Source: Rhodospirillales bacterium (GTDB lineage Bacteria > Pseudomonadota > Alphaproteobacteria > Rhodospirillales > UBA2165). Taken from it: a DNA stretch of 64,000 nucleotides. Shown piece after piece: positions 9,494 to 39,702 of the stretch. The notes beneath the pieces were generated by a model. That model worked only from the letters and a program-made list of their open reading frames with translations, searched no databases and had not been told where the DNA came from. Location: assembly GCA_965207535.1 (NCBI GenBank), contig CBDBMR010000004.1:18788-82787 (forward strand), written 5' to 3'. Each line of letters begins with the position of its first letter. Within the stretch, counting starts at the first letter, position 1. The position numbers were made by a program, and so were the translations under genes.

Positions 9494-10513
9494 TTATTCC
9501 CACGCCGCCATGGCCGCGAGCGGGCTCGCCTCGCGCACCATCTCGACCCCCTCGGGGGAGAGCTTCTCGAAGGCGAGCCAGGCGGCGGCCTCCATCTCGT
9601 CGTCGAACACGCCGAGGCACTCCCCGGTCCCGCGCAGATACACCGTGATGGTGGGCGGATAGACCGGCATCCCCCGGAAGTGGGCGGACCGCTCGTGGGA
9701 GCGCTTCGCGCAGGCGGGACAGCGGCAGGCGCCGAACGCCGGCGCGCCGCAATCGGTGCAGGCCGAGCGGGCGCGGCGGGCGGCATACCTTTTTCGGGCC
9801 GCCGCGTTCTTCCGTTCGGGACACTTGCCGGCGTCCTCGATCGCAGCGCATCGCGCACATCGGGACCGGCCGTCTAGGACCGGTGTACCGCACCGGGTGC
9901 AGCAGCCGGCGGCCCTGTGTTCGACGTACTGCCGGCGTTCCCGCTCCTGCCGTTTCTCGCGGCATGGGGCGCAGGTCGTCCCGCCCTCGACGGGCGGGCG
10001 CTTGCCGCACCGGATACAGAGGCCTGCTTCCTTGCGCGCCTTCTGGTTCCGCTTGCTCTTGGCCCGGGCGGACTTTCTCTTTGCAGTTGCATTGGCGCCG
10101 CCGTAAAGCTTCCCGGCAGCCTTGCCAGCCCGGTATTTTGCGCGGTCGGACGCCCGCCTCTTCTCCAGACACCCCTCGCAGGCGGTGCGCGCTGGCGCGG
10201 CCGGGGCCTTGCCGCAGCGAACGCAGATGCCGGCGGCCCGGCGTTCGGCGGCCAGCCGGCGGGCGTGCTTGCGCTGGAAGGCTCTCGCCTTGTCCGGGTC
10301 ACGCCTGGGCAGGGCGGCGGCCCGCAGCCGCGCATCCCGGGTCCGGGATGCGCGATTGCCCTTCTCGGCGCAACCTGCGCAGAGGCGGCGCTCCGGTCCG
10401 GGCGGGTGCACTCCACACCGCGGGCAGAGCCCGGCGGCGGTGCGTTCGGCGGTCCGTTTTCTGAACCGCTCGCGGTCGCGCTGTCGGCGAACTTCGGGAT
10501 CTGCATAGGCCAC
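9494..10513 (-). CDS. Protein with five tandem CxxCG...CxxC zinc-ribbon repeats plus a ~50-aa C-terminal YPP...DDEMEAAAWLAF domain
   Basis: A GTG start at 10513 follows GGGAG with a 7-nt spacer. The five units are CPRCGVHPPGPERRLCAGC, CVRCGKAPAAPARTACEGC, CIRCGKRPPVEGGTTCAPC, CTRCGTPVLDGRSRCARC and CTDCGAPAFGACRCPAC. Each is followed by a Lys/Arg-rich stretch. The tail is homologous to the tail of the recombinase at 32635. Confidence 0.65.
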   Translation of the reverse strand: MAYADPEVRRQRDRERFRKRTAERTAAGLCPRCGVHPPGPERRLCAGCAEKGNRASRTRDARLRAAALPRRDPDKARAFQRKHARRLAAERRAAGICVRCGKAPAAPARTACEGCLEKRRASDRAKYRAGKAAGKLYGGANATAKRKSARAKSKRNQKARKEAGLCIRCGKRPPVEGGTTCAPCREKRQERERRQYVEHRAAGCCTRCGTPVLDGRSRCARCAAIEDAGKCPERKNAAARKRYAARRARSACTDCGAPAFGACRCPACAKRSHERSAHFRGMPVYPPTITVYLRGTGECLGVFDDEMEAAAWLAFEKLSPEGVEMVREASPLAAMAAWE

Positions 10514-10608: not shown

Positions 10609-10935
10609 TCAGCCGCGTTGCCGGCGGTCGTGCCATAGGGACGTGGCCAGATCCCCCCAGAGCTGTTGGCCGCCCCGGGTGCGAAGCCCGGTGCAGACGA
10701 TGATCTCGGTGCGGGCCGGGCGCAGCTCCCTGACCGCCTTCAGCGTGGCGGTGATCCGCTTCGCCGGGCGTCCCTTTCCCTTCCCCGGCGCCTCGCCGGG
10801 CCAGGGGCGAATATCGCCATCGGCGTGGGCCTTAAAGCGCTCGATCACATATTTTTCGTCGGCGAGGCCGCTGCCGAATAGGTGGACCAGGAACGTTGCC
10901 GCCGTATTGCCGGGAACCGCCATTGCTGCATTCAT
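10609..10935 (-). CDS. Hypothetical backbone protein (108 aa); a paralogous fragment lies at 34071..34256
   Basis: The ATG at 10935 is preceded by GGAGA. MNAAMAVPGNTAATFLVHLFGSGLADEKYVIERFKAH aligns with MQAAIAPRGDARTFLTHFIGGGLEDDRYVVETYRSY. Confidence 0.55.
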   Translation of the reverse strand: MNAAMAVPGNTAATFLVHLFGSGLADEKYVIERFKAHADGDIRPWPGEAPGKGKGRPAKRITATLKAVRELRPARTEIIVCTGLRTRGGQQLWGDLATSLWHDRRQRG

Positions 10936-13271: not shown

Positions 13272-13316
13272 TTTTCCCTCCCGTGACAAACACGGGGAAG
13301 GCTAGGAAACAGCGGC
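13272..13316 (-). promoter_or_regulatory. 5' leader of the lipoprotein gene; inverted-repeat partner of 12205..12243
   Basis: See 12205..12243. It contains the hairpin CCCGTG/CACGGG, whose 3' arm overlaps the SD. Confidence 0.6.
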
Positions 13317-19544: not shown

Positions 19545-19819
19545 TTCGAAGCTTCAAGGATCGGGATACGCGCCGCTTCTTCGAGGGGCGGCGCGTCGCG
19601 GCATTCCAGGGCTTCGCCGGTCAGGCCGTGCGCCGGCTGATTTTGCTGGATGGCGCGGAGACGCTTGGCGACCTCGCCGCGCTGCCGAGCAACCGGCTCG
19701 AAGCGTTGCGCGGCGACCGCGCCGGTCAGCACAGCATTCGGATCAACGCGCAATGGCGTGTCTGCTTTCGTTGGACGGACGAAGGGCCGTGCGACGTGGA
19801 GATAGTGGATTATCACTGA
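19541..19819 (+). CDS. higB: HigB-family toxin (RelE/ParE superfamily, 'plasmid maintenance system killer')
   Basis: MIRSFKDRDTRRFFEG...LPSNRLEALRGDRAGQHSIRINAQWRVCFRWTDEGPCDVEIVDYH is the canonical HigB pattern. Confidence 0.85.
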   Translation: MIRSFKDRDTRRFFEGRRVAAFQGFAGQAVRRLILLDGAETLGDLAALPSNRLEALRGDRAGQHSIRINAQWRVCFRWTDEGPCDVEIVDYH

Positions 19820-19837
19820 GGGAGGAGGAGATTTGAC

Positions 19838-20143
19838 ATGAACGCCAGGAACGGAATGAGGCCGGTGCATCCCGGCGAAATCCTGCGCGGCGAGCTTGAT
19901 GAACTCGGGCTGTCGGCCAACGCGCTGTCGAAGGCGCTGGGCGTGCCGGTGAACCGGGTGACGATGATCCTGAACGGCCAGCGGGGCGTGAGCGCGGACA
20001 CGGCGCTGCGGCTGGCGCGGTATTTCGGGACGACGCCGCAACTTTGGCTGAATTTGCAGAAGACGTGGGAGCTTCGCCAAGCGGAGATCGCGGCGGGCCG
20101 GGAGATCGCGAAACGCGTGACGCCCCGGCAGTCGGCGGCGTAG
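19838..20143 (+). CDS. higA: HigA-family antitoxin (XRE HTH)
   Basis: SD GGAGGAGGAG upstream. MRPVHPGEILRGELDELGLSANALSKALGVPVNRVTMILNGQRGVSADTALRLARYFGTTPQLWLNLQ. Confidence 0.85.
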   Translation: MNARNGMRPVHPGEILRGELDELGLSANALSKALGVPVNRVTMILNGQRGVSADTALRLARYFGTTPQLWLNLQKTWELRQAEIAAGREIAKRVTPRQSAA

Positions 20144-26886: not shown

Positions 26887-28095
26887 TCAAAGCTGGCGGT
26901 CCCGGTCCAACCGAGGAGGTGGGCGGGACGATGTCCGGCCGCATGGGAGGCGCATCGCCTCGGCGATCAAGCTCCCGACCTTCTCCGCCGCCTCGACCAG
27001 ATGGCCGTCGTCAAGGTGGGCGTATCCCGCCGTGGTCTCGTACCGCCGGTGACCGAGCAGCTTTCCGACCAGCGCCAGGTTCTCACCCGCCATGACGGCC
27101 TGGCTGGCCGCCGTGTGGCGCAGGTCGTGCAGGCGCAGGCGGCCAAGCCCCGCATCTTCACAGACCGTCCGCCAGCAGTTCGTGAGAACCCAGATTCCCC
27201 GGCCTTCGGCATGGCGCGGAAACAGGAACGCATCCGGGTCGCCAGGACCGGGCAGCACCTCGATGAGCGCCCGCGCGGCCTCGCCGAGCGGCACGGCGCG
27301 CGGGCCGGTTTTCGAATCTTCGAGGTTCAACGCATCCGCGCTGACATTGCGCCAGCGCAGATTCAGAACTTCGCTGCGGCGGCACCCGGTCAGGGCCAGC
27401 AGCCGGATCGCAGCGACGGCCTCGGGCCAGCGGTCCTCATGGGCGTCGAGCGCACGCCCGAGTCGCGTCAGTTCATCGGTATCGAGGAACCGCGCGACCT
27501 TCTTCCTCGGGTTCTTCCGGATACCCAGGCAGGGGTTGGTGTCCCGCTCGCGCATTCCCCACTCCTCGGCCCGGAACATCATCGCGCGCAGGATCTCGAG
27601 CGCGCGGTTGGCCGCGCCGGGTTTGTCCCTGCTCGCCGCGTCGAACCACGCGGCCACGTCCTCCAGACCGATTTGGTCGAGAGGCATCCTGCCGAACGTG
27701 GGCAGGATGCGGGCTTTCAGGTAGATGCGCACGGTCCTGCGCCCGGAGGGCTTCCAGTGCGGATCGCAGCGCCGCAGATACTCGTCTGAAAACTCCCGCA
27801 GCGTCGGGGTCTGCTTGTCTTTCTGGATGTCGTCCGCGGGATTATCGCCCGCGCGGATGCGGGCGAGCATGTCGCGGGCGCGGCGGCGGGCCTCCACGAG
27901 CTCCATCTCTCCATGCCGGGCGATGACGATGCGGCGGCTCCGCCCCTCGATGCGGGCCTGCACGATCCAGATCTTGCTGCCCGAGGGATGGATGCGAAGG
28001 CCGAAGCCGGGCAAAGCCTTGTCGAACAGGATGGTGTCCTTCGGGCCGGGCCGGCTCGCGCGGGCCAGCTTCGCGGTAAGATCAACCCTTGGCAT
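26887..28095 (-). CDS. P4-type tyrosine integrase (DUF4102 arm-binding N-domain), downstream member of an overlapping pair
   Basis: The ATG at 28095 is preceded by GGGAGAG. N-terminus: FDKALPGFGLRIHPSGSKIWIVQARIEGRSRRIVIARHGEM. Catalytic residues: LTGCRRSE, LHDLRHTAAS, LGHRRYETTAGYAHL. Confidence 0.85.
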   Translation of the reverse strand: MPRVDLTAKLARASRPGPKDTILFDKALPGFGLRIHPSGSKIWIVQARIEGRSRRIVIARHGEMELVEARRRARDMLARIRAGDNPADDIQKDKQTPTLREFSDEYLRRCDPHWKPSGRRTVRIYLKARILPTFGRMPLDQIGLEDVAAWFDAASRDKPGAANRALEILRAMMFRAEEWGMRERDTNPCLGIRKNPRKKVARFLDTDELTRLGRALDAHEDRWPEAVAAIRLLALTGCRRSEVLNLRWRNVSADALNLEDSKTGPRAVPLGEAARALIEVLPGPGDPDAFLFPRHAEGRGIWVLTNCWRTVCEDAGLGRLRLHDLRHTAASQAVMAGENLALVGKLLGHRRYETTAGYAHLDDGHLVEAAEKVGSLIAEAMRLPCGRTSSRPPPRLDRDRQL

Positions 28096-29272
28096 GATCG
28101 CACTCTCCCTTGTTCTTCGCACCGTTTCCGGCCAGGGCCGCATGGATGCGGTTCGATACCCGGTCGGCGGCGTCCGTGACCGACCGGTCCGACAGATGGA
28201 CGTATCGCTCGGTCGTCTCGACCAGCGAATGGCCCAGCAGCTTGGCGATGGTCACCATGTCCAGGCCGTTCATGGCCGCGATCGAAGCCCAGCTATGGCG
28301 CAAATCGTGCAGCCGCAGACCGGGCAGTCCGGCCTCGGCGCGGATGCGGTTCCAATGGGACGCGATGTTGTCGATGGGCCGCGTCGGCGGACGGACGGGA
28401 AACAGATACGGGCAATCCTCGCCATAGCGCGGGATGGCGTCGATCACGGCCCGCGCCGCGCTCGACAGCCAGACCGTACGCGGACCCGACTTCGAGTCGG
28501 GAAGGAATATCCGCTTGCCCTTGATCCAGTCCCATTCGAGCGAGGCGATTTCGCCGAAGCGGCAGCCGGTCAGCATCAGCAAACGGATGACGGCGACGGC
28601 CTGGGGGCAATAGAACTCGTCGCGGGTGAGCACGGCGTTAAGCCGGGCCATCTCCTCGGCGTCGAGGAACCGCTCCTTCGGCTCCATCCTGTATCGTTTG
28701 GCGTTCTTGCACGGATTGGAGTTGTGCCGGCGGTATCCCCAAAGCTCGGCCATGCGCATCATCATGGACAGCACCGGCATGGCGCGGTTGGCGACGCCGG
28801 GCCGCCCGGCCATGGACGCGAACCAGTCCTTGACGTGCTCGGACGCGATGGCGTCCACGGTCAGATGACCGAAGGCGGGCAGGATGTCCTTGCGGACCAT
28901 GTAGGCGTTGGTCTCCTGGGTCCGGGGCTTCCAGTGCCGGGCCTGCCGGTCGAGGAATTCCTCCGCGAAGGCATCCATCGGATGCCCCGGCGTCCTGGGG
29001 CCGCCGCCGTTCTTCACCGTTTCGGTGAAGGCGGCAATCAGCCTGCGGGCTTCGGCGCGCGCCTCCGGGACCGTCATGGTCTCGGCATTGCCCACGGTGG
29101 CGTAGCGCCTGCGGCCGCGCAACGTGGTCTCCAGCGTGAAGCTGCGCGCGCCGCTCGGGAAGACACGGAGCCTCAGGCCGGGCACCGCGTCGTCGCGGAC
29201 GTCGAAGCGCTTGTCGCGGGGCTTGGCGGCGCGGACGCGCCGGGCGAAGGTGGATTTGGTCTGCTCGCTCAT
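28082..29272 (-). CDS. P4-type tyrosine integrase (DUF4102 N-domain), upstream member of the overlapping pair
   Basis: SD GAGGAG upstream. N-terminus: VRDDAVPGLRLRVFPSGARSFTLETTLRGRRRYATVGNAETM. Catalytic residues: LTGCRFGE, LHDLRHSWAS, LGHSLVETTERYVHL. Its stop codon at 28082-28084 lies 14 nt inside the next integrase ORF. Confidence 0.85.
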   Translation of the reverse strand: MSEQTKSTFARRVRAAKPRDKRFDVRDDAVPGLRLRVFPSGARSFTLETTLRGRRRYATVGNAETMTVPEARAEARRLIAAFTETVKNGGGPRTPGHPMDAFAEEFLDRQARHWKPRTQETNAYMVRKDILPAFGHLTVDAIASEHVKDWFASMAGRPGVANRAMPVLSMMMRMAELWGYRRHNSNPCKNAKRYRMEPKERFLDAEEMARLNAVLTRDEFYCPQAVAVIRLLMLTGCRFGEIASLEWDWIKGKRIFLPDSKSGPRTVWLSSAARAVIDAIPRYGEDCPYLFPVRPPTRPIDNIASHWNRIRAEAGLPGLRLHDLRHSWASIAAMNGLDMVTIAKLLGHSLVETTERYVHLSDRSVTDAADRVSNRIHAALAGNGAKNKGECDHAKG

Positions 29273-30264
29273 GATCGCGGCTCCTCGTTCAGGCCGCGCG
29301 GCTGAGCCGTAGGACAGGAAGCAGCCGCGGCGGCGTTTCGTCGGGGAAGCCGCGCGGCGGCGCGGGACGGGACGGGCCGTAAAGCCCTGTAATCACCGAA
29401 CTTTTCGTCCCAACAAGGGGTGGCGGGCGCTGGCGGGAAGTGCACCTTCGGTGCGTCAGGTGTGACGAAACAACCGCTCCGCGGTCCAGAAGGCTAAAAT
29501 CGTGCAGCGATTTTTGTGGGGGAATCGCCGCCGGCGAGAGCGGCGGCGGCGGTGTCCACACCGGTGCGGATAGAGAGAAGACGGGACCGGAATCGGTGAA
29601 CGGGATCGGGTGGTGACGTGGCGGGGCGACGATGCGTCGGCGGCAGCCAGATGGTTGCAGGCGCCGCGGCGGCATCGGCCGGGACGGACGACGGCGATAT
29701 TGAGCGGATGAGATGATGGCCGAACGGCCGATATCTCGCCGCCGCCCGCCCTCGGCTGCCGGCGCCTCTGGCGTCCGGGTCACCGGCATGGAGCCTGGGC
29801 GGTGAAAATCGCGGTCGGCACGCCCGGCACATGGGCCTGGGCCTCGGCCTCGCCGGGTTGTTCGGCCCGGTGCCTGTCGCCGGCGGAGGACCATCGAAAG
29901 CGGCATCGCCCCCATAATCGCGCTGTTGGCGACAGGACGGCGATACACATGACGGCGGGTGGCGGGCCGACGGCACGTGCCGGAAGCCGCCGCGAGCCCG
30001 GCCCCCGGGCACATCCTGCCGGAATGGGCCGTCGAGACGCGGGCCGCTAGACGCGCCCCGGAAGAACTGTTCTTCTCGGCGGCCGGTGAAGCGGAGCTGC
30101 GATACGGCGCGGCAATGGGCTGCGCTCGACCGGCCGGGCGCTACGATCACGGTCGGGCAATTCGGCAATCAAGAGCGCGCGCTGGAGTTTGATTAAACCG
30201 CCGTTGCTTTCAGGGGACGAACTCAACTAGGGTACCGGCATCGCAGCCACGGGCGCCAATCGTC

Positions 30265-31017
30265 ATGAAGATTCTGACCACCGCACTGATCTGCGTCCTG
30301 CTCTCCTTCGCGCCCGCAATCGGTGGCGATGCGGCCGGCGACAAGCTGCGCATCGGCGTGGATCCCGGCTACCCGCCCTTCAGCGGAACCGACGATGCGG
30401 GCCGGCTTCAGGGCTTCGACATCGACATCGCCAAGGCGCTGTGCGCGAAGCTGGAAACGGAATGCGCGTTCGTGCCAACACTGTGGGAGGGGTTGATCCC
30501 GGGGCTGCTCGCCGGGACCTTCGACGCCATCGTCTCCAGCATGTCGATAACCGAAAAGCGCCGGCAACTGGTCGCGTTCACGGACCGCTACTACAGCAAT
30601 GTCGTCCGCTTCGTCGCGCGGAAGGGCTCGGGCTTCGATCCGGCCGCGCCGGCGGGACGGGTCATCGGCGCGGCCCGCGCGACCATCGCCTCGGACTGGC
30701 TGGAAGCCAACATGGAGGAGCTTGCGGAGATCAGGCTATTCGGCGGACAGGGGGCGCTCCGCCGGGCGCTGCTGGAGGGCCGGGTGGACGCTGCGTTCGG
30801 CGACGGGCTGGGCTTCTGGACCTGGCTCCGCAGCCCGGCGGGCGCGGACTTCGCGTTCGCGGGCGAAGGATACCGCCTCGACGAAGGCATCGGCATTGCC
30901 GTGCGCAAGGAGGACGAGACCCTGCGCGGTCGTCTCAACCGGGCGCTCCGGGACATCCGCCGCGACGGCGCCTACCGCGGGATCAACGCGAAATACTTTC
31001 CGTTCGACATTTACTGA
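30265..31017 (+). CDS. Periplasmic amino-acid-binding protein (ABC family-3 SBP, His/Lys/Arg/Orn type); orphan, with no permease or ATPase gene nearby
   Basis: It has a signal peptide. LRIGVDPGYPPFSGTDDAGRLQGFDIDIAKALCAKL...WEGLIPGLLAGTFDAIVSSMSITEKRR is the SBP_bac_3 pattern. Confidence 0.8.
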   Translation: MKILTTALICVLLSFAPAIGGDAAGDKLRIGVDPGYPPFSGTDDAGRLQGFDIDIAKALCAKLETECAFVPTLWEGLIPGLLAGTFDAIVSSMSITEKRRQLVAFTDRYYSNVVRFVARKGSGFDPAAPAGRVIGAARATIASDWLEANMEELAEIRLFGGQGALRRALLEGRVDAAFGDGLGFWTWLRSPAGADFAFAGEGYRLDEGIGIAVRKEDETLRGRLNRALRDIRRDGAYRGINAKYFPFDIY

Positions 31018-31122
31018 CCCGCCGGGACGGCTTGATCCGGCGGCCGGCGGCGCGTAGGGTTCCGGGACTGATCAGCCCCTTCCTATCCCCTGGGTTCCTG
31101 ATTGGTGAACGAACCTGCTACC

Positions 31123-31163
31123 GAAGCCGCCCGGGTTTGGCGTCCGGGCGGCTTCACCTTTTC
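31123..31163 (+). terminator. Rho-independent terminator candidate downstream of the SBP gene
   Basis: GAAGCCGCCCGG (31123-31134), a 9-nt loop, then CCGGGCGGCTTC (31144-31155), followed by ACCTTTT. Confidence 0.6.
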
Positions 31164-31742
31164 AGGCCGCCGGATCCCCTAAGGCACAAAGCGAAGCGAC
31201 TGCCTTGGACTGCCGAAAACCGCCTGAAACAGGCAGTCCAGGTCAGTCCCGGTCAAGATTTTTGACCGTTCTTCGCTGAATGCCCGGCTTCAGTTTGTGC
31301 CTTATGTGGCGGCGGGCGAAGCCGCGCTCAGGACCGGCGGCACGTGCAATCCCCGCTTGCGAGGCCTCGGAGCGCTTTACGGGCAGCGGTGAAGGGCGAG
31401 TATGGCAATCGAACTCCGGAGATTAGTCGCGGCGCCATAATCCGACCGGGCGGTGATTTGCCGCTCGACCAAACCGCGGTGCTTCAACTCGGCGGCGGCG
31501 CGGCAGATGCGCGTTACCGGCAGCAACACGCCCGGCTCCGGCGGTTGGCGCCTGGGACGCCGGCGGCCCGCCGGTTCCCATGGGGAACACGGGTGAAGCG
31601 CGCCGGATGGACCGGCGGCCGAGTGGAAGGTTCGACGGGTTGCGGTTGGAATTGGAGAAAAGAAGCCCCGCCGCACGAGGGGACTCGGCGGCGGGGCAAG
31701 GCAGCGGGCGACTCCATGTAACCCACTGCCGGTCGGCAGGAA

Positions 31743-31790
31743 CCTAAATCAAGATGAAGCCGCCCGAGGTCGGACAGCCCGGGCGGCTTC
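31743..31790 (-). terminator. Hairpin/terminator candidate downstream of 31937..32227; its stem sequence is nearly identical to the one at 31123
   Basis: On the minus strand, GAAGCCGCCCG pairs with CGGGCGGCTTC, followed by ATCTTGATTT. Confidence 0.45.
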
Positions 31791-31936
31791 ACGGGAGTAG
31801 TGGAAGATCGAAGTTGCGTTCGTTCTTCCATCAACCGGGCCGCTTCTCCACCGGAAAGGACCGTAACCGGAGCGGCCTGGTTGATGACAGGCTATTTGCC
31901 CGCGGTCCCCAACGCAAACGGAATTGGTCAGGCCTC

Positions 31937-32227
31937 TCATATCTGGATGATCGCCCGGACCGTCCCGAAATCGACGATGGCAAAGTCGCAACGCGGCTGG
32001 TTCCGGATCGGCCGGGCGTTCCGGAAGTAGACGGCGTGTTCATCTTCGCGCCGCTGACCGGGCTCGTGCCAGGCGTTTAGCCGCTCGTTGTCGATGGTGG
32101 CAACTGTCTCCGAGGTTAAAATCACGGAGTCGTTGTCGGTCTGCCGTTCTGCAAGATAGCCAGAGAGCTTTTCGGCGGCGGCGTTGATCCGGTCCCAGTC
32201 GGCTTCGGTCAATTGGGAAAGGTCCAT
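31937..32227 (-). CDS. Hypothetical protein (96 aa)
   Basis: ATG at 32227. MDLSQLTEADWDRINAAAEKLSGYLAERQTDNDSVILTSE... No recognisable domain. Confidence 0.45.
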   Translation of the reverse strand: MDLSQLTEADWDRINAAAEKLSGYLAERQTDNDSVILTSETVATIDNERLNAWHEPGQRREDEHAVYFRNARPIRNQPRCDFAIVDFGTVRAIIQI

Positions 32228-32634
32228 TCCATTTTCCCTGTTTGTAACCGAGCCGGGGCGCACGCTTCGGGCCGGTGTCTTATGGCGCCATGACCTTGGC
32301 GTCCGCATTGTTGCGCCTGGCCCATTGCCGCGCCGTCCCGCGGATGTGGAAAGAGCCTGGGCACGAGGCCCAGGCTCCCTGAAGTAGCCATGTGGTTACC
32401 AACCACACCGACAAAAAGGACGGCATCGACGCCAGCCTCACCGCCTTAATTGTCGAAACATCGAAGCAACCGCAAGGTAAGGAATCGCCTCGATGTCTGA
32501 CGCCACAACACCGTTACGGGAGAAACCGTGATGTCGGGCGCCACGATAATCTCCCCCGCGGCCGGGCGCAAGGCGCGCATCCCGGCGGGCGGCGGGACGG
32601 CGGCGCAGCACGGCGAGCCCCCGCCGCGGCGGGG

Positions 32635-34014
32635 CTATTCCCAGGCGGCCAGCGAGACGATCTCCACCTGGCCGCGGTCGATCCTCTGGAAGGCGAGCCA
32701 GGCGGCGACCTCCATCTCGTCGTCGAGGACGGCAAGCGGCTCGTCGGCGCCGCGCAGGAACACGGCGTAGCGCGGCGGATAGTCCGCGACCTCGCGGAGG
32801 GCGTTGAGATCGACCTTGGCGTACACGGCGGTGGCCGACGGGCTGCGATGGCCGAGAAAGTCCCCGATCTCCTTCATCGACATGCCCTGGTCGAGGAGAT
32901 GCCGGGCAGCGGCATGGCGCAGCGCGTGAGGCCCGCGGGGGCCGTCGACGACACCGACCCGCCGCAGACGGTTGCGGACGATGCTTGCCATCACACCCCG
33001 GCTGAGCGGTCGGATCGGAGCGAAGAGCGTGAGGAAGAGGGTGCGTTCGGGGCGCGGCGGACGAACTTCGAGAATGTAGCGGAGAATGGCCTGTCCAACG
33101 CCCCGGGACAGGGGGAAGATATGCGTCCGGCCGGACTTGGAGCGGTGCACGCGCAGCGTCTCGTTCTCCCAGTCCAGGTCATCCAGTTGCAAGCGGCCGA
33201 CCTCGCCCGAGCGCAGCCCGTAGGCGACCAGCAGCATCAGGATGGCGCGGTCGCGCTTGTCGACCGCCCGCTCACCCTCGGTAGTGGCCAACAGGCGCTC
33301 GACATCCTCCCGGCTCAGCCCCGCCGGCACCGGATCGGTCGGATAGACCCGCGGAGGGATCATCGCGGCGGCTATCCCCGGTCTGCACCAGCCGCGATCC
33401 TCGGCAAAGCGGAAGAACCCGCGAATGCATCCCGCGTACCGCCTTATCGAACTCCGGCTGTAGCGCCCGGTGGCGCTCTTCGCCACGATGGCGGTGTCGA
33501 CATCCGTCAGAGTGACGGAGGAAAGCGATACATCATTGGCATCCAGCCGGTCGAAGAAGTTATCGAGGTCGAGGCGGTACAACCGGATCGTCGACTCCGA
33601 CAACCCGCGTTCTTCGCGCATCCATGCCCCATAGGAATCGAGTTCGGCACGGTGGGGAGGCTGGGCCATCGGCGGCTCTTCGAGCCAACCGAGAAAGCGC
33701 AGCCACCGAATCGCACCTCGCACCACGCGCTTTGCCGACGCCGGTGAAGTCGGCACCGTCCGGTGGTACCTGTGATCCCCGGGACGCGACCATTCCGCGA
33801 TCGCAGCCTCGAGCTGGGGAATGCTGACCGTGTCGCCTGCCTTCAAATCCAGAAGATGGACCAGACGGGTCTGTTCCATCGCGGTGAGGCGCAACGTCCG
33901 CCGGCTGGCGCCCGATTGCGCGAGATGGTCGAGATAGCTCAGCCGCTGATCGGCGAGCGGCGCTGTTTGGTGCTTCTCAAGTGCTTGCGGCGTCGTGAAT
34001 AGTTCTTCGAACAT
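32635..34014 (-). CDS. XerC/D-like tyrosine recombinase (459 aa) fused in frame to a ~50-aa YPP...DDEMEVAAWLAF tail homologous to the zinc-ribbon protein C-terminus
   Basis: The ATG at 34014 is preceded by AAGGAG; the upstream 209 codons of ORF 32635..34641 were rejected. Catalytic residues: LLVAYGLRSGEV, PHALRHAAARHL, LGHRSPSATAVYAKV. The tail YPPRYAVFLRGADEPLAVLDDEMEVAAWLAFQRIDRGQVEIVSLAAWE follows directly. Confidence 0.8.
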   Translation of the reverse strand: MFEELFTTPQALEKHQTAPLADQRLSYLDHLAQSGASRRTLRLTAMEQTRLVHLLDLKAGDTVSIPQLEAAIAEWSRPGDHRYHRTVPTSPASAKRVVRGAIRWLRFLGWLEEPPMAQPPHRAELDSYGAWMREERGLSESTIRLYRLDLDNFFDRLDANDVSLSSVTLTDVDTAIVAKSATGRYSRSSIRRYAGCIRGFFRFAEDRGWCRPGIAAAMIPPRVYPTDPVPAGLSREDVERLLATTEGERAVDKRDRAILMLLVAYGLRSGEVGRLQLDDLDWENETLRVHRSKSGRTHIFPLSRGVGQAILRYILEVRPPRPERTLFLTLFAPIRPLSRGVMASIVRNRLRRVGVVDGPRGPHALRHAAARHLLDQGMSMKEIGDFLGHRSPSATAVYAKVDLNALREVADYPPRYAVFLRGADEPLAVLDDEMEVAAWLAFQRIDRGQVEIVSLAAWE

Positions 34015-34070
34015 GATCGTCTCCTTTTTGCTGGAGCCATGATCATGTCCACCGTGTAGTGCTGTGAAAA

Positions 34071-34256
34071 TTATGTTGACTTCAACTTCGTCGATGACCC
34101 GCCAGAGACCGGGGTCCGTCGCCGCCGCAACATAATCGGCTGCGCAACATATGAGCGGTAGGTCTCGACCACATAGCGGTCGTCTTCGAGACCGCCGCCG
34201 ATGAAGTGGGTGAGGAACGTGCGCGCGTCGCCGCGCGGTGCGATTGCCGCCTGCAT
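34071..34256 (-). pseudogene. Truncated paralogue of 10609..10935
   Basis: SD GGAGG upstream. The first ~36 codons align with the 108-aa protein; after ETYRSY the sequence diverges and stops. Confidence 0.5.
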
Positions 34257-34452
34257 GATGTCGCCTCCGTCTCGCTTGATGATGGTGAACGGCGGCCGAT
34301 GCCCTCCCCGGGCATCCGGCCACCGCCCCGTTCACGGCCAAGCCTCTCCTCTTTATGGAGAAGAGCACGGGGATGGAGACGGCGACGGAATGGCCGACGC
34401 GGAATTCATCGGTTTTCATTGATGTGCGTACCGGCATGCGGTACGGATAGCC

Positions 34453-34731
34453 ATGATCCGGAGCTTTCGTCATCGAGGCCTCAAGCGGATGTATGAGCGA
34501 GGAGATAGGAGAGGGGTGGGATTCGATCTCTTGGATCGTATCGCGCTGGCGCTGGCCGACCTCGACGACGCGGGCAAACCCTCCGACCTCAATCTGCCTG
34601 GCTATCGGATTCATCCGCTGAAGGGCAATCTCAAGGGGCACTGGAGCATCTCAATTTCAGGAAACTGGCGGGTGACCTTTCGCCTCGAGGACGGAGACGT
34701 ATACGATGTCGACTTGGTCGACTATCACTGA
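34453..34731 (+). CDS. higB: HigB-family toxin (second copy)
   Basis: [18 protein letters not shown]...[45 protein letters not shown]. Confidence 0.85.
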
Positions 34732-34745
34732 CGGGAGCCAAGAGT

Positions 34746-35042
34746 ATGCCGATGATCGATCCTCCCCATCCTGGACGAAGCGTCCGCGAAAACTGTCTGG
34801 AACCGCTAGGCTTGAGCGTGACCGAGGCGGCGCGTGTGCTCGGCGTTGCCCGTCACACACTGTCCCGGGTGCTGAATGGCCACGCAGGGATTTCACCTGA
34901 AATGGCGATCCGCCTCGAAAAGGCGGGCTGGTCAAATGCCGAATTCTGGTTGCGGCGCCAGACCACCTACGATCTCGTCCAGGCGCGGAGACACGAGGAC
35001 CAAATCGCGGTGCGGCGTTATCAGCCACATGCGGCGGCATGA
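34746..35042 (+). CDS. higA: HigA-family antitoxin (second copy, XRE HTH)
   Basis: [72 protein letters not shown]. Confidence 0.85.
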
Positions 35043-35173
35043 CTGTTCTACATGTTCGATCCCCGCGGGCTGATCGTCGCGACATACAATTCCATGATCG
35101 CAATGCCGTACCGGCCGTTCAGGTGTCCGGCGGTCAGCGGATTCCGGGTGCCCATTGGCTGGATGTATTAAAG

Positions 35174-35932
35174 CTACCGGAACCGCGCGTCATCGAGTTG
35201 CCGATAGGCGTCCGTATTCTTTAATTTGCCGTTGCCTTTAGCCAGATCGAAGGGGACCCGGCCGCGTTGGTCTCGCGTCGCGGGGTCCGCCCCGGCATCA
35301 AGCAAGGCGTTGACGGTTTCGGCGGAGCCGAACCTCACCGCCACGTGCAGCGGGGTTAGGCCATGTACGGTTCGCGCTTCGATATCGGCCCCGGCATCAA
35401 ACAAGGCGTTGACGGTCTCGGCGGTGCCGGCCACCGCCGCCGCCACGTGCAGCGGGGTCTGACCGTCTTTGGCTCGCGCTTGAATGTCGGCCCCGGCATC
35501 AAGCAAGGCGTTTATGGTCTCGGCGGAGCCGAGCGCCGCCGCCATGTGCAGCGGGGTCAGGCCGTTTAGGTCTCGCGCCTCAATGTCCGCCCCGGCGCGA
35601 AGCAAGGCGTTGACGGTCTCGGCGGTGCCGAACCCCGCCGCCCCGTGCAGCGGGGTCAGGCCGTTTACGTCTTGCGCGTCGATGTCCGCCCCGGCGCGAA
35701 GCAAGGCGTCGATGGCCTCGACGGCGCCGGCCCCCGCCGCCATGTGCAGCGAGGTCAGGCCATGTTCGGCTCGTGCTCCAATGTCCGCCCCGGCATCAAG
35801 GCACCGCTTCACATCCGCGCCGGCGGCGGTTTTGAAGAACGCCTTTGTGTTCCACGACGCGCAATCGGGTTGCGCATGGGCCGGGCCGGTCAGGGCCAAG
35901 GCAAGCGCACTGGCGGCAAGCAGTCGAAGCAT
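35174..35932 (-). CDS. Secreted ankyrin-repeat protein (about six ANK repeats)
   Basis: ATG at 35932. Signal peptide: MLRLLAASALALALTGPAHA. Repeats have the form GLTPLHMAAxxGxAETVNALLxAGADIxAR. Confidence 0.85.
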   Translation of the reverse strand: MLRLLAASALALALTGPAHAQPDCASWNTKAFFKTAAGADVKRCLDAGADIGARAEHGLTSLHMAAGAGAVEAIDALLRAGADIDAQDVNGLTPLHGAAGFGTAETVNALLRAGADIEARDLNGLTPLHMAAALGSAETINALLDAGADIQARAKDGQTPLHVAAAVAGTAETVNALFDAGADIEARTVHGLTPLHVAVRFGSAETVNALLDAGADPATRDQRGRVPFDLAKGNGKLKNTDAYRQLDDARFR

Positions 35933-36052
35933 GGAGGGTCCTTTCAGCCTATTCGGTTGGAGTGTGCACTTCGCCGGAGTGTTTTCCTTGAAGCGGCCTT
36001 GGACCGTCCGCACCCCTTCGCGCGCAGGGGATGTTCCCGCAACAGAGATCGT

Positions 36053-36973
36053 TTACCGCGCAACCTCACGTCGCGGACGCACCTCGTATGACAATGCAGG
36101 AAGAGTCCTTATCGCTTCGAAAATAGTTCCTCGCCAACGCCATCCTTGACCGTATGTGAAAATCCCTGGCCCGCGTACCGGTCCTACGGCGGCATTATCG
36201 GGTATGAACCAAGTCATCGACATATCCCTTAGTAGTAGTCGGGTTATTTCGGCCAAACCCACAAGCATTCCCGGGTTGGCCAAAATCTTTTGGAATTCGT
36301 TGGCCAAAATATTTCGCAATTCGCCGGGGTCTTCCTCGTCGATGTCCCTCAGGACCGTTATCGCAATCTTCATTTCTTCCTGACACAGTTCGGGCTTCTC
36401 TTCTGACGCGCACGAAGCCTCGAGATCGGGAAGATCCTCGATTGCCGGGCGCGGAACTTCGGCAACCGACACCCTGTAGGGGTTGTAGACGCCGGTCAAC
36501 GGTTCGACATGCATACCCAAGACATCTTCGGCGAAGCCGGCCGGCAGCGTCCTCGGGTCGTAAGGGCCTACCTGGATGGAACAGCCGTTCCCCCTGATGC
36601 CCGAGTACTTGAAGTTTATCGGCACAGGCACGGCCGAATAGGGTATCCCCTGACGTACAAAAGCATCCTTGTCGAATATGTGATCCGCCAACATGCATGC
36701 GTTGGCGGCCGAGTTGAGTTCGGCCCGCATTTCGGCAAGAAACGTTTGCTCCTTCACGTGTGACTTTAGACCCGGCCGCTCCGAGAGGTGCGTGACGGCG
36801 TCATGAAACGAGGCGATGTATGAAAGCATCGACATCTTGGGTTGCAATAGAACACGGTCAATTATCTGCCCATCTTCGAGGACCGTGGTCGTCCCCTCGA
36901 CTTTCAGGCACCCCGAAAGGACAATCGAGAATCCGATTACCGCGAAAACGAGTTTCCAAGATCTCATGTTCAT
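36053..36973 (-). CDS. Hypothetical lipoprotein
   Basis: Lipobox: WKLVFAVIGFSIVLSGC. The start is ambiguous (ATG at 36973, 36967 or 36994). Lower-GC gene with no recognisable domain. Confidence 0.5.
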   Translation of the reverse strand: MNMRSWKLVFAVIGFSIVLSGCLKVEGTTTVLEDGQIIDRVLLQPKMSMLSYIASFHDAVTHLSERPGLKSHVKEQTFLAEMRAELNSAANACMLADHIFDKDAFVRQGIPYSAVPVPINFKYSGIRGNGCSIQVGPYDPRTLPAGFAEDVLGMHVEPLTGVYNPYRVSVAEVPRPAIEDLPDLEASCASEEKPELCQEEMKIAITVLRDIDEEDPGELRNILANEFQKILANPGMLVGLAEITRLLLRDMSMTWFIPDNAAVGPVRGPGIFTYGQGWRWRGTIFEAIRTLPALSYEVRPRREVAR

Positions 36974-37204
36974 GTAACTTCTTTTGCCGAACATTGTCCC
37001 CATTCCGGGATTTTCGTGCTCCCGGAAAAAATCGGAATATTTGGCACCTTCCGCCTCCGGCATGTGGCGCTCGGTCCAGTTTCGCACTGTATGGCGGGGC
37101 CGCAGGAAACACAATATGGCGCGTACCCTTGCGGCGACGGTGATGACAACGCGGTCACCCGCCGGAGCAGGACCGCCGGCAGCGGCACCGCCCCTTGCCA
37201 GCCC

Positions 37205-38056
37205 TCACGGCAGGACCGGCACTGCCCGCAGATAATCGAAGATCGCCCCGGCGATGCGCCGGCGCTCTGCCTCCGGCAGACGGTTCGAGAGCGCCGGCAT
37301 CGTCGCGCCCTCGCGCTCCGAGGCCGGAACCAGCATGGGCCGCAGGAATGCCGCCCTGTCGGCGCTCTTGGCGATCTCAGCCAGATTGCCCACGAACTTC
37401 TCGCCGCCATAGCCGTTGACCTTGTGGCAGGTCAGGCAATAGGCCTTGACCAGCATCGCGCCCGGCCGCAGGCGAGGATCGAGACCTTCAGGCAGCAGCG
37501 CGGCGTCCGACAGGGCGACAGGGTTCACCACCGCCACCTGGTAGGGCCAGTCGCGCGCGCCCTCGGCAATCAGCGCCGGATTGCCCATATTGTCCCAGAC
37601 CAGATAGTAAGGCCCGAGAGGGACGTTCTTCTCGTTCTGCCGGATGTTGTCCACCGTGAAGGGGGCGCCGTCCCCGTGCGCGAAGACGATGAACGCCTTC
37701 TCCTCGTGGAAGCGCCGCACCGGGATGCGCGAGACGTAGCCGTCCAGGGCGCGGAACTCGATCGCCCCGCCCCGCCGGTTCCAGTCCCCGCCCAGGATGC
37801 GCTGGAGCACCTCGACCGCCGGATAACCGACATAGCGAACCTCGACATGGCGGTCGCCTACGCTCAGATGAGGCTCGTAGACGGCGACCGTCCCGGGCGG
37901 CGTTCCCATCCGCCGCTCGAGTTCCTCCGGCGGCGGCAGTTCCGCCGCCCCCGCCGTGCCGGCCAGGAGGACGGTCCCCCATAAGGTGCAGCGGAGAATG
38001 CCCGTCCCCCGCTTCCGCCGGGGCTTGAATCCCCTGCCGGTCTCCTTGTTTTTCAT
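37205..38056 (-). CDS. Periplasmic protein with a C-terminal mono-haem c-type cytochrome motif
   Basis: N-terminal basic/hydrophobic signal: RRKRGTGILRCTLWGTVLLAGTAGAAE. Haem-binding motif: YCLTCHKVNG, with a downstream Met (GATMPAL). The N-domain is unassigned. The long ORF back to 38449 was rejected. Confidence 0.55.
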   Translation of the reverse strand: MKNKETGRGFKPRRKRGTGILRCTLWGTVLLAGTAGAAELPPPEELERRMGTPPGTVAVYEPHLSVGDRHVEVRYVGYPAVEVLQRILGGDWNRRGGAIEFRALDGYVSRIPVRRFHEEKAFIVFAHGDGAPFTVDNIRQNEKNVPLGPYYLVWDNMGNPALIAEGARDWPYQVAVVNPVALSDAALLPEGLDPRLRPGAMLVKAYCLTCHKVNGYGGEKFVGNLAEIAKSADRAAFLRPMLVPASEREGATMPALSNRLPEAERRRIAGAIFDYLRAVPVLP

Positions 38057-38163
38057 GTTGCCCATCCCGCGTCGATTCACCCGTTCAGCCGCACATGATC
38101 GCCCGGCGCACCGGAAACGGCGGTTCGACCGAATCCGGAGGCGAGTTCCGTCTTGTATCGCGC

Positions 38164-39318
38164 TCAACTCAAAATATCTTCCCCGATGCTGGCAGCGACC
38201 TTGGCCGACGACGCCTTGATGGAATCCCGCGCCAGATGCGCATAGCGCGACGTCGTCTCGATCTTGTTGTGCCCCAGCAGCTTGCCGATCATCGAAAGCG
38301 ACTCCCCGAGGGCCAGCGCCCTGGATGCGAACGAGTGCCTGAGATCGTGAATCCGCACGTCCTCGAGGTCCGCCTCCGCCCGCACCCGGTCCCAGTAGTG
38401 GTTGAGATCGGCAAGGCGACGGCCCGGCTTGGTGCCCGGGATCACCCACGGGTTGCCTTCGATGCGCGGCAGTTCCGCCAGTACCCGCGCCGCCGCCGGC
38501 GACAGCGGCACCAGCCGCGCGCCGGTTTTCGAATCGGCGAGCCTCAACTCGCCCGCTTCAAGGTCCACGTGCTTCCACTGGAGCTCGACGATCTCGTTCC
38601 GCCGGCACCCGGTCAGCATCAGCAGCCGGATCGCCGCCGCAGGGTAGGCCGTCAATCTTCCCTCGGCCTCCATCTCGTTCAGCACCGCGCCCAGGTGGCG
38701 GAACTCCGCCTCGGTCAGGAAACGCTCCCGCTTCTTCTCCTGGTATTTGCGCACGTACTTGCAGGGATTGCCCCCAGTTCGCAGCTTCCATTCCTCGGCG
38801 AAGTTGAACAGGCTGTTGCCGATCTCCAGCGCCCGGTTCGCCTGATAGGGAATATGGCGGAGATCGCGGTGCAGTTCGTCGATGTGCTTGCGCTCCACAT
38901 CCTCCACCGCCATCTTTCCGTAGGACGGCACGATGAAGCGCTCGACCACGCTGCGGTACATCTTGCGCGTGCTCTCCTTGCAGCGCATGTCCACATGCTC
39001 TTCCAGATAGCGCGCGGCAAGCTCGGCCACCGTCACCGCGTCTCGCTCCACCGGATCCTCGCCGCTCCGAATGCGGTTGAGGGTCGTGGCCGCCTTCTTG
39101 CGCGCCTCGTCGGCGGTGATAACCCCGTGGCGTCCCAGCGTCACCCGGTGCGACCTCCCCTTGCGCCGGGTCTGGACGACATACACTTTCGCTCCCGACG
39201 GATAGACCCTGACCCCGAAGCCGGGGATGCGGTCATCCCAGAAGACCGCGTCGCGGTTCTCCACCGAGAGTGCATCGACGGTGCGTTTGGAGATGGTTCG
39301 GAACTTCAGCTTGGCCAT
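38164..39318 (-). CDS. P4-type tyrosine integrase (DUF4102 N-domain), third copy
   Basis: SD AGGGAG upstream. N-terminus: FWDDRIPGFGVRVYPSGAKVYVVQTRRKGRSHRVTLGRHGVITADEARKKA. Catalytic residues: LTGCRRNE, IHDLRHSFAS, LGHNKIETTSRYAHL. Confidence 0.85.
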   Translation of the reverse strand: MAKLKFRTISKRTVDALSVENRDAVFWDDRIPGFGVRVYPSGAKVYVVQTRRKGRSHRVTLGRHGVITADEARKKAATTLNRIRSGEDPVERDAVTVAELAARYLEEHVDMRCKESTRKMYRSVVERFIVPSYGKMAVEDVERKHIDELHRDLRHIPYQANRALEIGNSLFNFAEEWKLRTGGNPCKYVRKYQEKKRERFLTEAEFRHLGAVLNEMEAEGRLTAYPAAAIRLLMLTGCRRNEIVELQWKHVDLEAGELRLADSKTGARLVPLSPAAARVLAELPRIEGNPWVIPGTKPGRRLADLNHYWDRVRAEADLEDVRIHDLRHSFASRALALGESLSMIGKLLGHNKIETTSRYAHLARDSIKASSAKVAASIGEDILS

Positions 39319-39702
39319 GTGGTGCTCCCTGTCGGAATGATTCTCACTCCACCCGGCCGCCCGGGATATTCCGTTCCGTAAGCGTAAGCTAGACGTAAGC
39401 GACCGGAGTGGTACTCCCGGATCTTGTATCGTAGCTGAGGGCGGGTTTCAAGGGGTGTCGACATGGCCAGAAACCCTTGTAACGTTGGGAATAACCCAGG
39501 AAATGTCGTCTCCTGCGTTCTACAGGCAACTCAAGCGTACTTGTGTCCAGATATCCGGAAATGGGTCTCTATTTAAGTGCCGCCGATATCGGCGGCAAGG
39601 CGCAGGCTGCCACTTTGTTCGCGCTTTTTGGCCAATGTCGTGTCTCTCCCCCTAACCGGCAGGATATGGTTTCCGTCTATTGCCGCGACCGGATTTGCCG
39701 CC

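What the first reader, a model, noticed from the sequence alone, without database searches (positions are those of the whole stretch)
32635..34256. Cassette swap: a tyrosine recombinase occupies the slot held by the zinc-ribbon array in the paralogous backbone copy, and is fused to the same C-terminal tail
The two loci compare as follows.

Copy A (minus strand):
- 108-aa gene (10935->10609)
- zinc-ribbon gene (10513->9494)

Copy B:
- first ~36 codons of the 108-aa gene (34256->~34148)
- unrelated sequence plus a recombinase (34014->~32790)
- the last ~50 codons, homologous to the zinc-ribbon protein tail

The DNA stretch gaaggcgagccaggcggcg-N-cctccatctcgtcgtcga is shared by 9570-9610 and 32690-32730. 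The upstream non-coding regions also align (10940-11060 with 34260-34400).

So a ~1.36-kb recombinase module has replaced ~1.16 kb in one copy and reads in frame into the old 3' end. This looks like integration into, or gene conversion of, the zinc-ribbon gene, with the target's 3' end retained. It may mark the recombinase's own att site.
Basis: partly seen in the sequence, partly recalled or inferred. Interest (0 to 1): 0.65.

Follow-up and report, generated by a model that had tools for sequence, protein, structure and literature searches.

The report
Truncated recombinase-trio transposon fused to neighbouring gene
The "swapped-in" recombinase is the surviving first third of a known transposon type (a RIT, recombinase-in-trio element) that landed in a small gene of a decayed mobile island, and a later ~3.2-kb deletion joined it in frame to the end of the next gene; this is ordinary genome decay, though the intact junction marks a favoured landing site of these poorly understood transposons.

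Summary
Copy B (32635-34341) matches copy A only in two patches: the 5' end and upstream region of the 108-aa gene, and the last ~48 codons of the zinc-ribbon gene. A tyrosine recombinase lies between them and reads in frame into that tail.

The recombinase is RitA of a RIT element. Its closest relatives (82-91% identity) are all 418 aa, end ...LREVADFDLEGLA*, and are followed by overlapping ritB and ritC inside a 3417-bp unit with perfect terminal inverted repeats. The window keeps only positions 1-1375 of that unit (34153->32781). It has no ritB, no ritC and no right end.

The left junction (34154|34153) is a genuine RIT end. At least eight other p108 alleles elsewhere are hit at the same nucleotide. 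The right junction (32782/32781) lies inside ritA, 7 codons before its stop, at a 2-nt microhomology, so it is a deletion scar and not an att site.

The tail is native to the zinc-ribbon family. The fusion is found on one contig only. This is a decayed RIT in the remnant of a second, tandem mobilizable island, and its interest is low. The recurrent target site is the more useful by-product.

The parts
34257..34341 (-). Upstream (promoter/RBS) region of the 108-aa gene, copy B, homologous to 10936-11018 of copy A
   Evidence: BLASTN 10840-11018 vs 34164-34341, 66.9%. The same stretch aligns with backbones L006, L007, L009, L010, L015, L016 and L023.
34154..34256 (-). 5' fragment of the 108-aa gene (p108): 34 codons + 1 nt, MQAAIAPRGDARTFLTHFIGGGLEDDRYVVETYR|. 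Mechanically it reads on into the RIT end as a 61-aa ORF (34071-34256).
   Evidence: tblastx vs copy A. Homology with other backbones stops at 34155/34156. Sequence read.
34123..34153 (-). Left terminal inverted repeat of the RIT element (CATATGTTGCGCAGCCGATTATGTTGCGGCG); the only copy in the window
   Evidence: Exact match, 0 expected by chance, no second (right-end) copy. Identical to the ends of full elements in L001-L004.
32781..34153 (-). RIT remnant: positions 1-1375 of a 3417-bp element (left IR, 139-bp leader, ritA codons 1-411)
   Evidence: BLASTN of the full L002 RIT vs the window: 1-1375 = 34153-32781, 85.6%. No ritB or ritC anywhere in the window.
32782..34014 (-). ritA codons 1-411 (the native protein is 418 aa). 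The positions I take, from general knowledge of tyrosine recombinases, to be the catalytic ones (R256, K293, H363, R366, H389, Y398) are kept.
   Evidence: 82-91% identity to RitA of complete trios. Invariant columns listed. Pfam PF00589 and PF02899.
32781..32782 (-). Deletion junction: the CT dinucleotide shared by both parents (RIT ...GCGGACT|TCGAT..., zinc-ribbon gene ...GCCGCTCT|ATCCGCC...)
   Evidence: Alignments. Homology with backbones L006, L007, L010 and L015 starts at exactly 32782.
32635..32781 (-). Last 48 codons + stop of a zinc-ribbon-family gene (YPPRYAVFLRGADEPLAVLDDEMEVAAWLAFQRIDRGQVEIVSLAAWE*), with a 7-residue gap relative to the family
   Evidence: Alignments A5 and A7. 86-87% nt identity to L007, L010 and L015 against 72.5% to copy A.
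32635..34014 (-). Chimeric ORF, 459 aa = RitA(1-411) + zinc-ribbon tail(48)
   Evidence: In the protein collection this exact protein is on one contig only, while 8 of the other 9 cluster members are 418 aa and one is a 77-aa fragment.
10609..10935 (-). Intact 108-aa gene (p108) of copy A. The position equivalent to the RIT insertion is between 10830 and 10829 (TTTAAGG^CCCACGCC).
   Evidence: An intact p108 sits directly upstream of the zinc-ribbon gene in most of 80 related loci.
9494..10513 (-). Intact zinc-ribbon gene of copy A (339 aa; tail = 9494-9661)
   Evidence: Family of conserved 339-aa proteins, with one member 100% identical. Weak Zn_Ribbon/DZR Pfam hits.
34453..35042 (+). HigB/HigA toxin-antitoxin pair of decayed element B (paralogous to 19541-20143 in element A)
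   Evidence: Pfam; tblastx A vs B.
38164..39318 (-). P4-type integrase of decayed element B, next to the chromosomal flank
   Evidence: Pfam. About 42% aa identity to the element A integrases. Housekeeping genes start at ~40.9 kb.

Best explanation
The window carries two related integrative mobilizable elements in tandem. Element A (about 1971-29272) is intact. Its gene order is two integrases, cargo, p108, the zinc-ribbon gene, SSB, a YAcAr protein and a TrwC relaxase. Element B (about 32.6-39.3 kb) is a decayed sister element. In B, a 3.4-kb RIT transposon (ritA-ritB-ritC between perfect terminal inverted repeats) inserted into p108, one nucleotide past codon 34. This RIT subfamily uses that position again and again. 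Later, an illegitimate deletion of about 3.2 kb, at a CT microhomology, removed seven things: the last 7 codons of ritA; all of ritB and ritC; the right inverted repeat; the 20-bp palindrome module; the 3' part of p108; and the first ~284 codons of the zinc-ribbon gene. By chance (1 in 3) the deletion joined ritA in frame to the last 48 codons of the zinc-ribbon gene. The result is a 459-aa chimeric ORF. With one end and one of three recombinases left, the remnant can no longer move. Shown directly: the identity and truncation of the RIT, both breakpoints, the native origin of the tail, and the recurrence of the target. Inferred: the order of events, a single deletion, and loss of function.
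For: RitA identity. In one search (2791 hits with E <= 1e-10) the 120 best, which are the ones listed, are 398-421 aa (one of 549 aa has an N-terminal extension) and cover 86-90% of the query, and the alignment shows them all ending ...LREVADFDLEGLA*. The window reads ...LREVAD|YPPRY...AAWE*. The closest homologues P0001, P0003, P0004, P0005 and P0006 all sit first in overlapping trios of 418/313/331 aa (ritB called short, 245 aa, in L099). A Cupriavidus plasmid carries the same trio at 39/45/53% identity.

Truncation. The full element is 3417 bp with 31-44-bp perfect terminal IRs. The window aligns to positions 1-1375 only. It has one IR copy, no palindrome and no ritB or ritC.

Left junction. 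The conserved element sequence begins at the same base in all loci. The p108 5' flank abuts a RIT end at the same nucleotide in L001, L004, L089/90, both sides of L093, L098 and L099. The p108 3' part flanks RITs in L001, L004, L095 and L104. The p108 alleles differ from one another.

Right junction. RIT homology stops and zinc-ribbon homology starts within CT. Four independent backbones begin aligning at exactly 32782.

Tail. It is present in every zinc-ribbon family member aligned. The profile search finds it almost only at C-termini.

Backbone. p108 followed by the zinc-ribbon gene is conserved in ~80 loci from alphaproteobacterial MAGs. Region B shares integrase, HigBA, the p108 5' end and the tail with A, in the same order.

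The fusion is a singleton. Truncated RITs are known from the literature (PMC3414803) and are seen here in L043 and L105.
Against: No relative with an intact element B (a full RIT in p108 followed by an intact zinc-ribbon gene of the B lineage) was recovered, so the order of events and a single deletion are inferred. The chimeric ORF is intact, and its lineage-specific changes are 9 synonymous to 5 non-synonymous. That gives no sign of decay, so a recent event and retained function cannot be told apart. The contig comes from a metagenome-type assembly and read support for the right junction could not be checked.
Confidence: 0.85

Rival explanations
1. One reading: a self-contained ~1.36-kb tyrosine-recombinase cassette integrated site-specifically into the zinc-ribbon gene (or converted it). 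Both junctions are its att sites, and the target's 3' end is kept as part of the design, as in elements whose attP lies inside the int gene.
For: The in-frame read-through into the tail and colinear flanks on both sides. The left junction is indeed a real element end.
Against: The recombinase is the first gene of a trio in every close relative. The right junction is internal to ritA, with no inverted repeat or binding-site motif. The left junction lies in p108, not in the zinc-ribbon gene. No other member of the protein cluster carries the tail.
Confidence: 0.04
2. The right junction is an assembly artefact: a chimeric join or a collapsed repeat in a metagenome-assembled contig.
For: The source looks like a MAG contig (239,977 bp). 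Genomes of this group hold many copies of both the backbone and the RIT, which invites misassembly.
Against: Both flanks belong to the same backbone in the right order and orientation. The B tail is a distinct allele with its own 7-codon gap, and it continues ~40-70 bp past the stop into backbone-like intergenic sequence. The join is at a 2-nt microhomology, not inside a long repeat.
Confidence: 0.06
3. The chimera is a selected, functional protein: RitA domesticated by gaining the small C-terminal domain of the zinc-ribbon protein, for instance to recruit it to the island's DNA-processing machinery.
For: An intact 459-aa ORF with the presumed catalytic positions conserved. No excess of non-synonymous changes. 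The tail is predicted to fold as a compact beta-beta-alpha-beta-alpha domain (pLDDT 80).
Against: It is found on one contig only. It lacks the conserved C-terminal FDLEGLA of RitA, its partners RitB and RitC, and one element end. The tail has a 7-residue deletion. Other accidental read-through chimeras into the same tail exist: a transposase-like protein, a helicase-like protein and one other. Element B is otherwise decayed.
Confidence: 0.05

Closest known systems
RIT (recombinase in trio) elements: Van Houdt et al. 2009/2012 (PMC3414803), Ricker et al. 2013, Nielsen et al. 2017 (PMC5737581)
   Same: ritA is 82-91% identical to the first gene of complete ritA-ritB-ritC trios with 4-8-bp gene overlaps. 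The full element is ~3.4 kb with terminal inverted repeats and an adjacent palindrome. They are frequent inside genomic islands and other mobile elements, and truncated copies are already described.
   Different: The window keeps only the left 40% (one IR plus ritA minus 7 codons), fused in frame to a host-island gene. This subfamily, from uncultured marine or sponge-type Alphaproteobacteria, is only ~40-53% identical to RitA of cultured Rhizobiales, Rhodobacterales and Burkholderiales.
Tn916 / Tn554 / SE-type tyrosine-recombinase transposons that carry 'coupling' flank bases between sites (PMC10214605)
   Same: In full relatives, the 5-6 bases next to the IR or the palindrome look carried over from an earlier p108 site. 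Examples are AACGG, the reverse complement of p108 CCGTT, and CAAGG in L002/L003. No regular target duplication is seen.
   Different: This is pure sequence inference from about a dozen junctions. RIT movement has never been reproduced experimentally, and the window itself keeps only one junction.
Integrases whose attP lies inside their own gene (SSV1-type partition of int on integration; from my own knowledge)
   Different: Here the break is not at a recombination site, the element has two further recombinase genes in all relatives, and the exchange is unique to one contig.
Read-through or deletion chimeras created by mobile-element insertion next to a host gene
   Same: Other proteins end in the same zinc-ribbon tail after an unrelated N-terminus: P0320 (transposase-like), P0333 (helicase-like) and P0326.
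   Different: In the window the partner is a RIT recombinase, and the join was made by an internal deletion rather than by the insertion itself.

Membership tests
RIT (recombinase in trio) element | Three adjacent, overlapping tyrosine-recombinase genes ritA-ritB-ritC | tested here: not met
   Only ritA is present. tblastn with RitB and RitC finds nothing but weak paralogous hits on ritA and the P4-type integrases. All close relatives do have the trio. The window copy is therefore a remnant, not a complete member.
RIT (recombinase in trio) element | RitA orthology (first, longest recombinase, ~410-420 aa) | tested here: met
   82-91% identity over residues 1-411 to RitA of complete trios. 39% to the RitA of a Cupriavidus trio.
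RIT (recombinase in trio) element | Terminal inverted repeats at both ends, unit length ~3.4-3.5 kb | tested here: not met
   The left IR is present and exact (34123-34153). There is no right IR and no palindrome in 64 kb. 1373 bp of 3417 bp are kept.
RIT (recombinase in trio) element | Mobility as a unit | not testable with these tools
   Near-identical full copies at different sites in one genome (L002/L003) and the same RitA next to different p108 alleles argue for mobility of the family. The remnant itself lacks the parts needed.
Tyrosine recombinase (Phage_integrase, PF00589) | Catalytic domain with the R..K..HxxR..H..Y residues | tested here: met
   PF00589 E = 4e-30 and PF02899 E = 1e-13. 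R256, K293, H363, R366, H389 and Y398 are invariant columns in alignment A1; reading them as the catalytic residues rests on my own knowledge of the family.
Zinc-ribbon-array protein family of the island backbone (unnamed, no Pfam or NCBIfam model) | C-terminal ~55-residue YPP...AAWE domain following the CxxC repeats | tested here: met
   The copy B tail aligns over its whole length and keeps all six invariant positions (V7, D20, L29, F31, E40, W54) but has a 7-residue gap. The CxxC array itself is absent from copy B.
   The junction is internal to ritA and has no IR or binding motif. It is unique to one contig.

The most novel reading that the evidence does not exclude
The intact left junction (34154|34153) is one of at least nine independent hits of this RIT subfamily at the same nucleotide of a small conserved island gene, so RIT elements would be site-preferring transposons. 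Junction anatomy in the full relatives suggests how they move. The unit is a bare IR on one side and IR + 5 bp + 20-bp palindrome + 5 bp on the other, which forms two core-like sites with 8-bp inverted arms and 6-bp spacers. The 5-6 flank bases appear to be carried from the previous site. Together these point to a circular intermediate that can open at either of two sites and tolerates heterologous overlaps, as Tn916 and Tn554 do. RIT movement and target specificity have never been demonstrated.
Probability: 0.4. Interest if true: 0.55.

Novelty: new member of a known kind. Interest (0 to 1): 0.27.

Why it matters
As it stands it matters little. It is a worked example of how insertion followed by deletion can produce an in-frame chimeric ORF that looks like a designed cassette swap, and a warning against reading such fusions as att sites or domain architectures. 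The useful by-product is a natural data set for RIT elements, whose transposition and target choice remain untested in the literature. It comprises many independent insertions at one nucleotide of one gene family, in both orientations, with empty sites available for comparison. That gives concrete substrates (the p108 target, the IR ends, the palindrome) for a first in vitro or in vivo transposition assay.

Tried and rejected
- Exact scans for the 31-nt RIT end in genome contigs and metagenome contigs found nothing. More RIT copies were obtained through the proteins instead.
- A search for the 20-bp palindrome as a solo excision footprint in 100+ loci found it only next to RITs.
- The extra p108 5' fragment in L026 looked like a second case but has no RIT next to it.
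- P0285 (465 aa, tail at 410-462) looked like a second recombinase-tail fusion but is just a long zinc-ribbon variant.
- The tail has no Pfam or NCBIfam family. Its model (pLDDT 80) has no significant PDB fold match, best E = 1.2, so its function stays unknown.
- Rfam on 29000-40500 gave only a sub-threshold SorX-like hit.
- There is no tRNA in the window to mark an att site.
- A relaxed-selection test on ritA was uninformative (9 synonymous / 5 non-synonymous).
- I looked for RIT binding-site motifs at the right junction as a sign of recombinase-mediated deletion and found none.
- The exact source record of the window could not be retrieved.

Full report
**Observation**

A self-comparison of the window and a sensitive pairwise BLAST of 9300-11300 against 32400-34800 show exactly two homologous patches.
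- 9537-9678 matches 32657-32798 at 72.5% over 142 nt. This is the last ~48 codons of the zinc-ribbon gene, 54% identical at protein level, from YPP... to ...AAWE*.
- 10840-11018 matches 34164-34341 at 66.9% over 181 nt. This is the first 34 codons of the 108-aa gene (p108) plus ~85 bp upstream.

Between the patches, copy B has a 459-aa ORF (34014->32635) with Phage_integrase and SAM-like domains that runs in frame into the tail. The only correction is that the upstream match is shorter than stated.

**What the recombinase is**

The protein search returned 2791 hits with E <= 1e-10. The 120 best, which are the ones listed, are 398-421 aa (nearly all 415-421; one of 549 aa has an N-terminal extension) and cover 86-90% of the query. 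In the alignment they all end ...LREVADFDLEGLA*, whereas the window protein reads ...LREVAD|YPPRYAVFL...AAWE*. So the tail is not a native recombinase domain, and the recombinase has lost its own last 7 codons.

The genomic context of the closest homologues settles its identity. P0001 (91%), P0003, P0004, P0005 and P0006 each sit first in a trio of overlapping tyrosine-recombinase genes of 418/313/331 aa (ritB is called short, 245 aa, in L099). This is the RIT (recombinase in trio) architecture described by Van Houdt et al. and Ricker et al.. A Cupriavidus plasmid, from the genus in which RITs were defined, carries the same trio at 39/45/53% identity.

Aligning the flanks of the full copies fixes the unit at 3417 bp, with perfect terminal inverted repeats starting CATATGTTGCGCAGCCGATTATGTTGCGGCG. 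The window aligns only to positions 1-1375 of this unit (34153->32781, 85.6% to L002). It contains one copy of the terminal repeat and no ritB, ritC, right repeat or palindrome.

**The two junctions are different in kind**

The left junction (34154|34153) is a true element end. Conserved RIT sequence begins at the same base in every locus, and upstream of it the window carries p108 up to ...GTCGAGACCTACCGCT.

The right junction lies inside ritA.
- The RIT parent reads ...GAGGTCGCGGACT|TCGATCTGG...
- The zinc-ribbon parent (L006 type) reads ...GGCATGCCGCTCT|ATCCGCCG...
- The window reads ...GAGGTCGCGGACTATCCGCCG...

Only CT is shared, and no RIT binding motif is nearby. Independent backbones (L006, L007, L010, L015) begin to align with copy B at exactly 32782 and stop at exactly 34155/34156 on the other side. 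The right junction is therefore a deletion scar.

Reconstructing from full relatives, about 3.2 kb was lost:
- 2042 bp of RIT;
- the 30-bp palindrome module;
- ~224 bp of p108;
- ~95 bp of spacer;
- ~852 bp of the zinc-ribbon gene.

This total is inferred. The in-frame outcome has a 1-in-3 chance expectation.

**The tail and the backbone**

The zinc-ribbon protein belongs to a conserved family, typically 339 aa, with no Pfam or NCBIfam model. Every aligned member carries the YPP...AAWE tail. The copy B tail is a different allele from copy A: 86-87% nt identity to L007, L010 and L015 against 72.5% to copy A, and it has a 7-residue gap.

A profile of the tail finds 209 cluster representatives, with the match nearly always at the C-terminus. 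A few have unrelated N-termini: P0320 is transposase-like, P0333 is helicase-like, and P0326 is a third. So accidental read-through into this tail recurs. The tail is predicted as a small beta-beta-alpha-beta-alpha domain (pLDDT 80) with no fold match.

The backbone has the order two P4-type integrases, cargo, p108, zinc-ribbon gene, 41-aa gene, SSB, YAcAr protein, TrwC relaxase. It is conserved in loci from uncultured Alphaproteobacteria and Rhodospirillales, often in several copies per genome.

In the window, element A (TrwC at 1971-4781 through the integrases at 26887-29272) is complete. Region B shares with it, in the same order, an integrase (38164-39318), a HigBA pair (34453-35042), the p108 5' end and the tail, and nothing else. 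Chromosomal genes begin near 40.9 kb. Copy B is thus the remnant of a second, tandemly integrated sister element.

**Status of the chimera**

The exact 459-aa protein occurs on one contig only. Of the other nine members of its 90% cluster, eight are 418 aa and one is a 77-aa fragment. Lineage-specific changes in the window ritA are 9 synonymous to 5 non-synonymous, similar to or better than those of intact copies. The truncation is therefore either recent or neutral so far, and the test does not discriminate. Lacking RitB, RitC, the conserved RitA C-terminus and one end, the remnant is most likely immobile and non-functional. That last point is an inference.

**A by-product worth recording**

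The p108 gene is hit by this RIT subfamily at the same nucleotide in the window, L001, L004, L089/90, both flanks of L093, L095, L098, L099 and L104. The L104 RitA is only 70% identical and its IRs have diverged. The p108 alleles differ from case to case. Other targets are a vapC gene, a tniB-like gene and hsdR. The vapC site shares the 15 nt CGATGGCCGACGGCA with the p108 3' flank of L095.

Full elements carry one extra module (5 bp + 20-bp palindrome TTATGTKGARYTCMACATAA + 5 bp) beside one IR. The p108 5' part always touches a bare IR and the 3' part always touches the palindrome, whichever way ritABC points. The flanking 5-mers look carried over from earlier p108 sites.

A palindrome next to the IR was noted in the literature, but movement and target specificity of RITs remain untested. 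A more distant subfamily (64% RitA identity) sits in reverse-transcriptase genes instead. These points are preliminary and rest on about a dozen junctions.

**Verdict**

The finding is real as an observation. It is explained by known processes: insertion of a known transposon type into a decaying island, followed by an illegitimate deletion that made an accidental in-frame fusion. It is a new, broken member of a known kind, and its interest is low. Only the left junction says anything about the recombinase's own target.

Noticed in passing
L001:3700-3790 and 7185-7260; L004:5800-5870 and 9270-9390; L089, L093, L095, L098, L099, L104 flanks; window 34154|34153: The same nucleotide of the p108 gene is the insertion point of RITs in at least eight different p108 alleles, in both orientations, and for RitA variants down to 70% identity. 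An unrelated vapC target (L002) shares CGATGGCCGACGGCA with the p108 3' flank of L095. This suggests sequence-specific targeting, which the literature lists as untested.
   Followed up: partly
L001:7195-7224; L002:9277-9306; L003:5830-5859; L004:5830-5859; L091-L097 right ends; L104:~780-810: Each complete RIT has one extra module beside one IR: 5 bp + the 20-bp palindrome TTATGTKGARYTCMACATAA + 5 bp. With the IR it forms core-like sites (8-bp inverted arms, 6-bp spacer). The 5-mers (AACGG, CAAGG, CGCGC, TGCGG) look like flank bases carried from earlier sites. The palindrome never occurs alone in 100+ loci.
   Followed up: partly
L093:300-372 and 3788-3865: One RIT has p108 5' fragments on both sides in inverted orientation. 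L091 and L092 share a right flank but differ on the left. This implies recombination or inversion between RIT copies sitting in different island copies.
   Followed up: no
L011:2970-5753; L043:5571-5732; L105:4501-10251: A distantly related RIT sits between p108 and the zinc-ribbon gene, which then starts at aa 13 (L011). Only a ritC 3' remnant lies next to a zinc-ribbon gene truncated to aa 27 onward (L043), the mirror image of the window case. Two RITs lie head to head with one truncated (L105).
   Followed up: partly
proteins P0320, P0333, P0326: Other chimeric ORFs end in the same zinc-ribbon tail after a transposase-like, a helicase-like or another N-terminus. The 3' end of this gene is repeatedly left behind and read into.
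   Followed up: partly
window 1-39400: The first ~39 kb is a tandem pair of related integrative mobilizable elements. Element A holds a TrwC relaxase (1971-4781), a YAcAr protein (6977-7909), SSB (8668-9249), a DUF4145 protein (11164-12099), HigBA (19541-20143), an MmeI-type restriction-modification enzyme (20156-22936), an IS110 transposase (24136-25173) and two overlapping P4-type integrases (26887-29272). No tRNA is present to mark the att site.
   Followed up: partly
window 12159-12247 and 13268-13356: An 89-bp inverted repeat (76% identity) flanks a 201-aa ORF (12244-12849) in the lower-GC cargo region of element A. It may be a small mobile unit.
   Followed up: no
window 29935-30116 and 32565-32635: Short stretches match intergenic backbone sequence of other loci: downstream of the zinc-ribbon gene in L016 (86% over 74 bp) and upstream of p108 in L009 and L010. 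These are probably further scraps of element B or the end of element A.
   Followed up: no
window 35260-35800: Internal ~100-bp tandem repeats at 80-83% identity correspond to the ankyrin repeats of a secreted-looking 279-aa protein (35174-36013). From my own knowledge, ankyrin-repeat proteins are common in sponge-symbiont genomes, and several of the related MAGs appear to be of that kind.
   Followed up: no
L101:3341-4500; L103:85-1244; L102:4300-4360: RITs with 64% RitA identity sit inside reverse-transcriptase (RVT_1) genes. They have their own palindrome variant (CAGATGTTGCGTGCAACATCTG) next to the IR, which suggests that different RIT subfamilies have different preferred targets.
   Followed up: no
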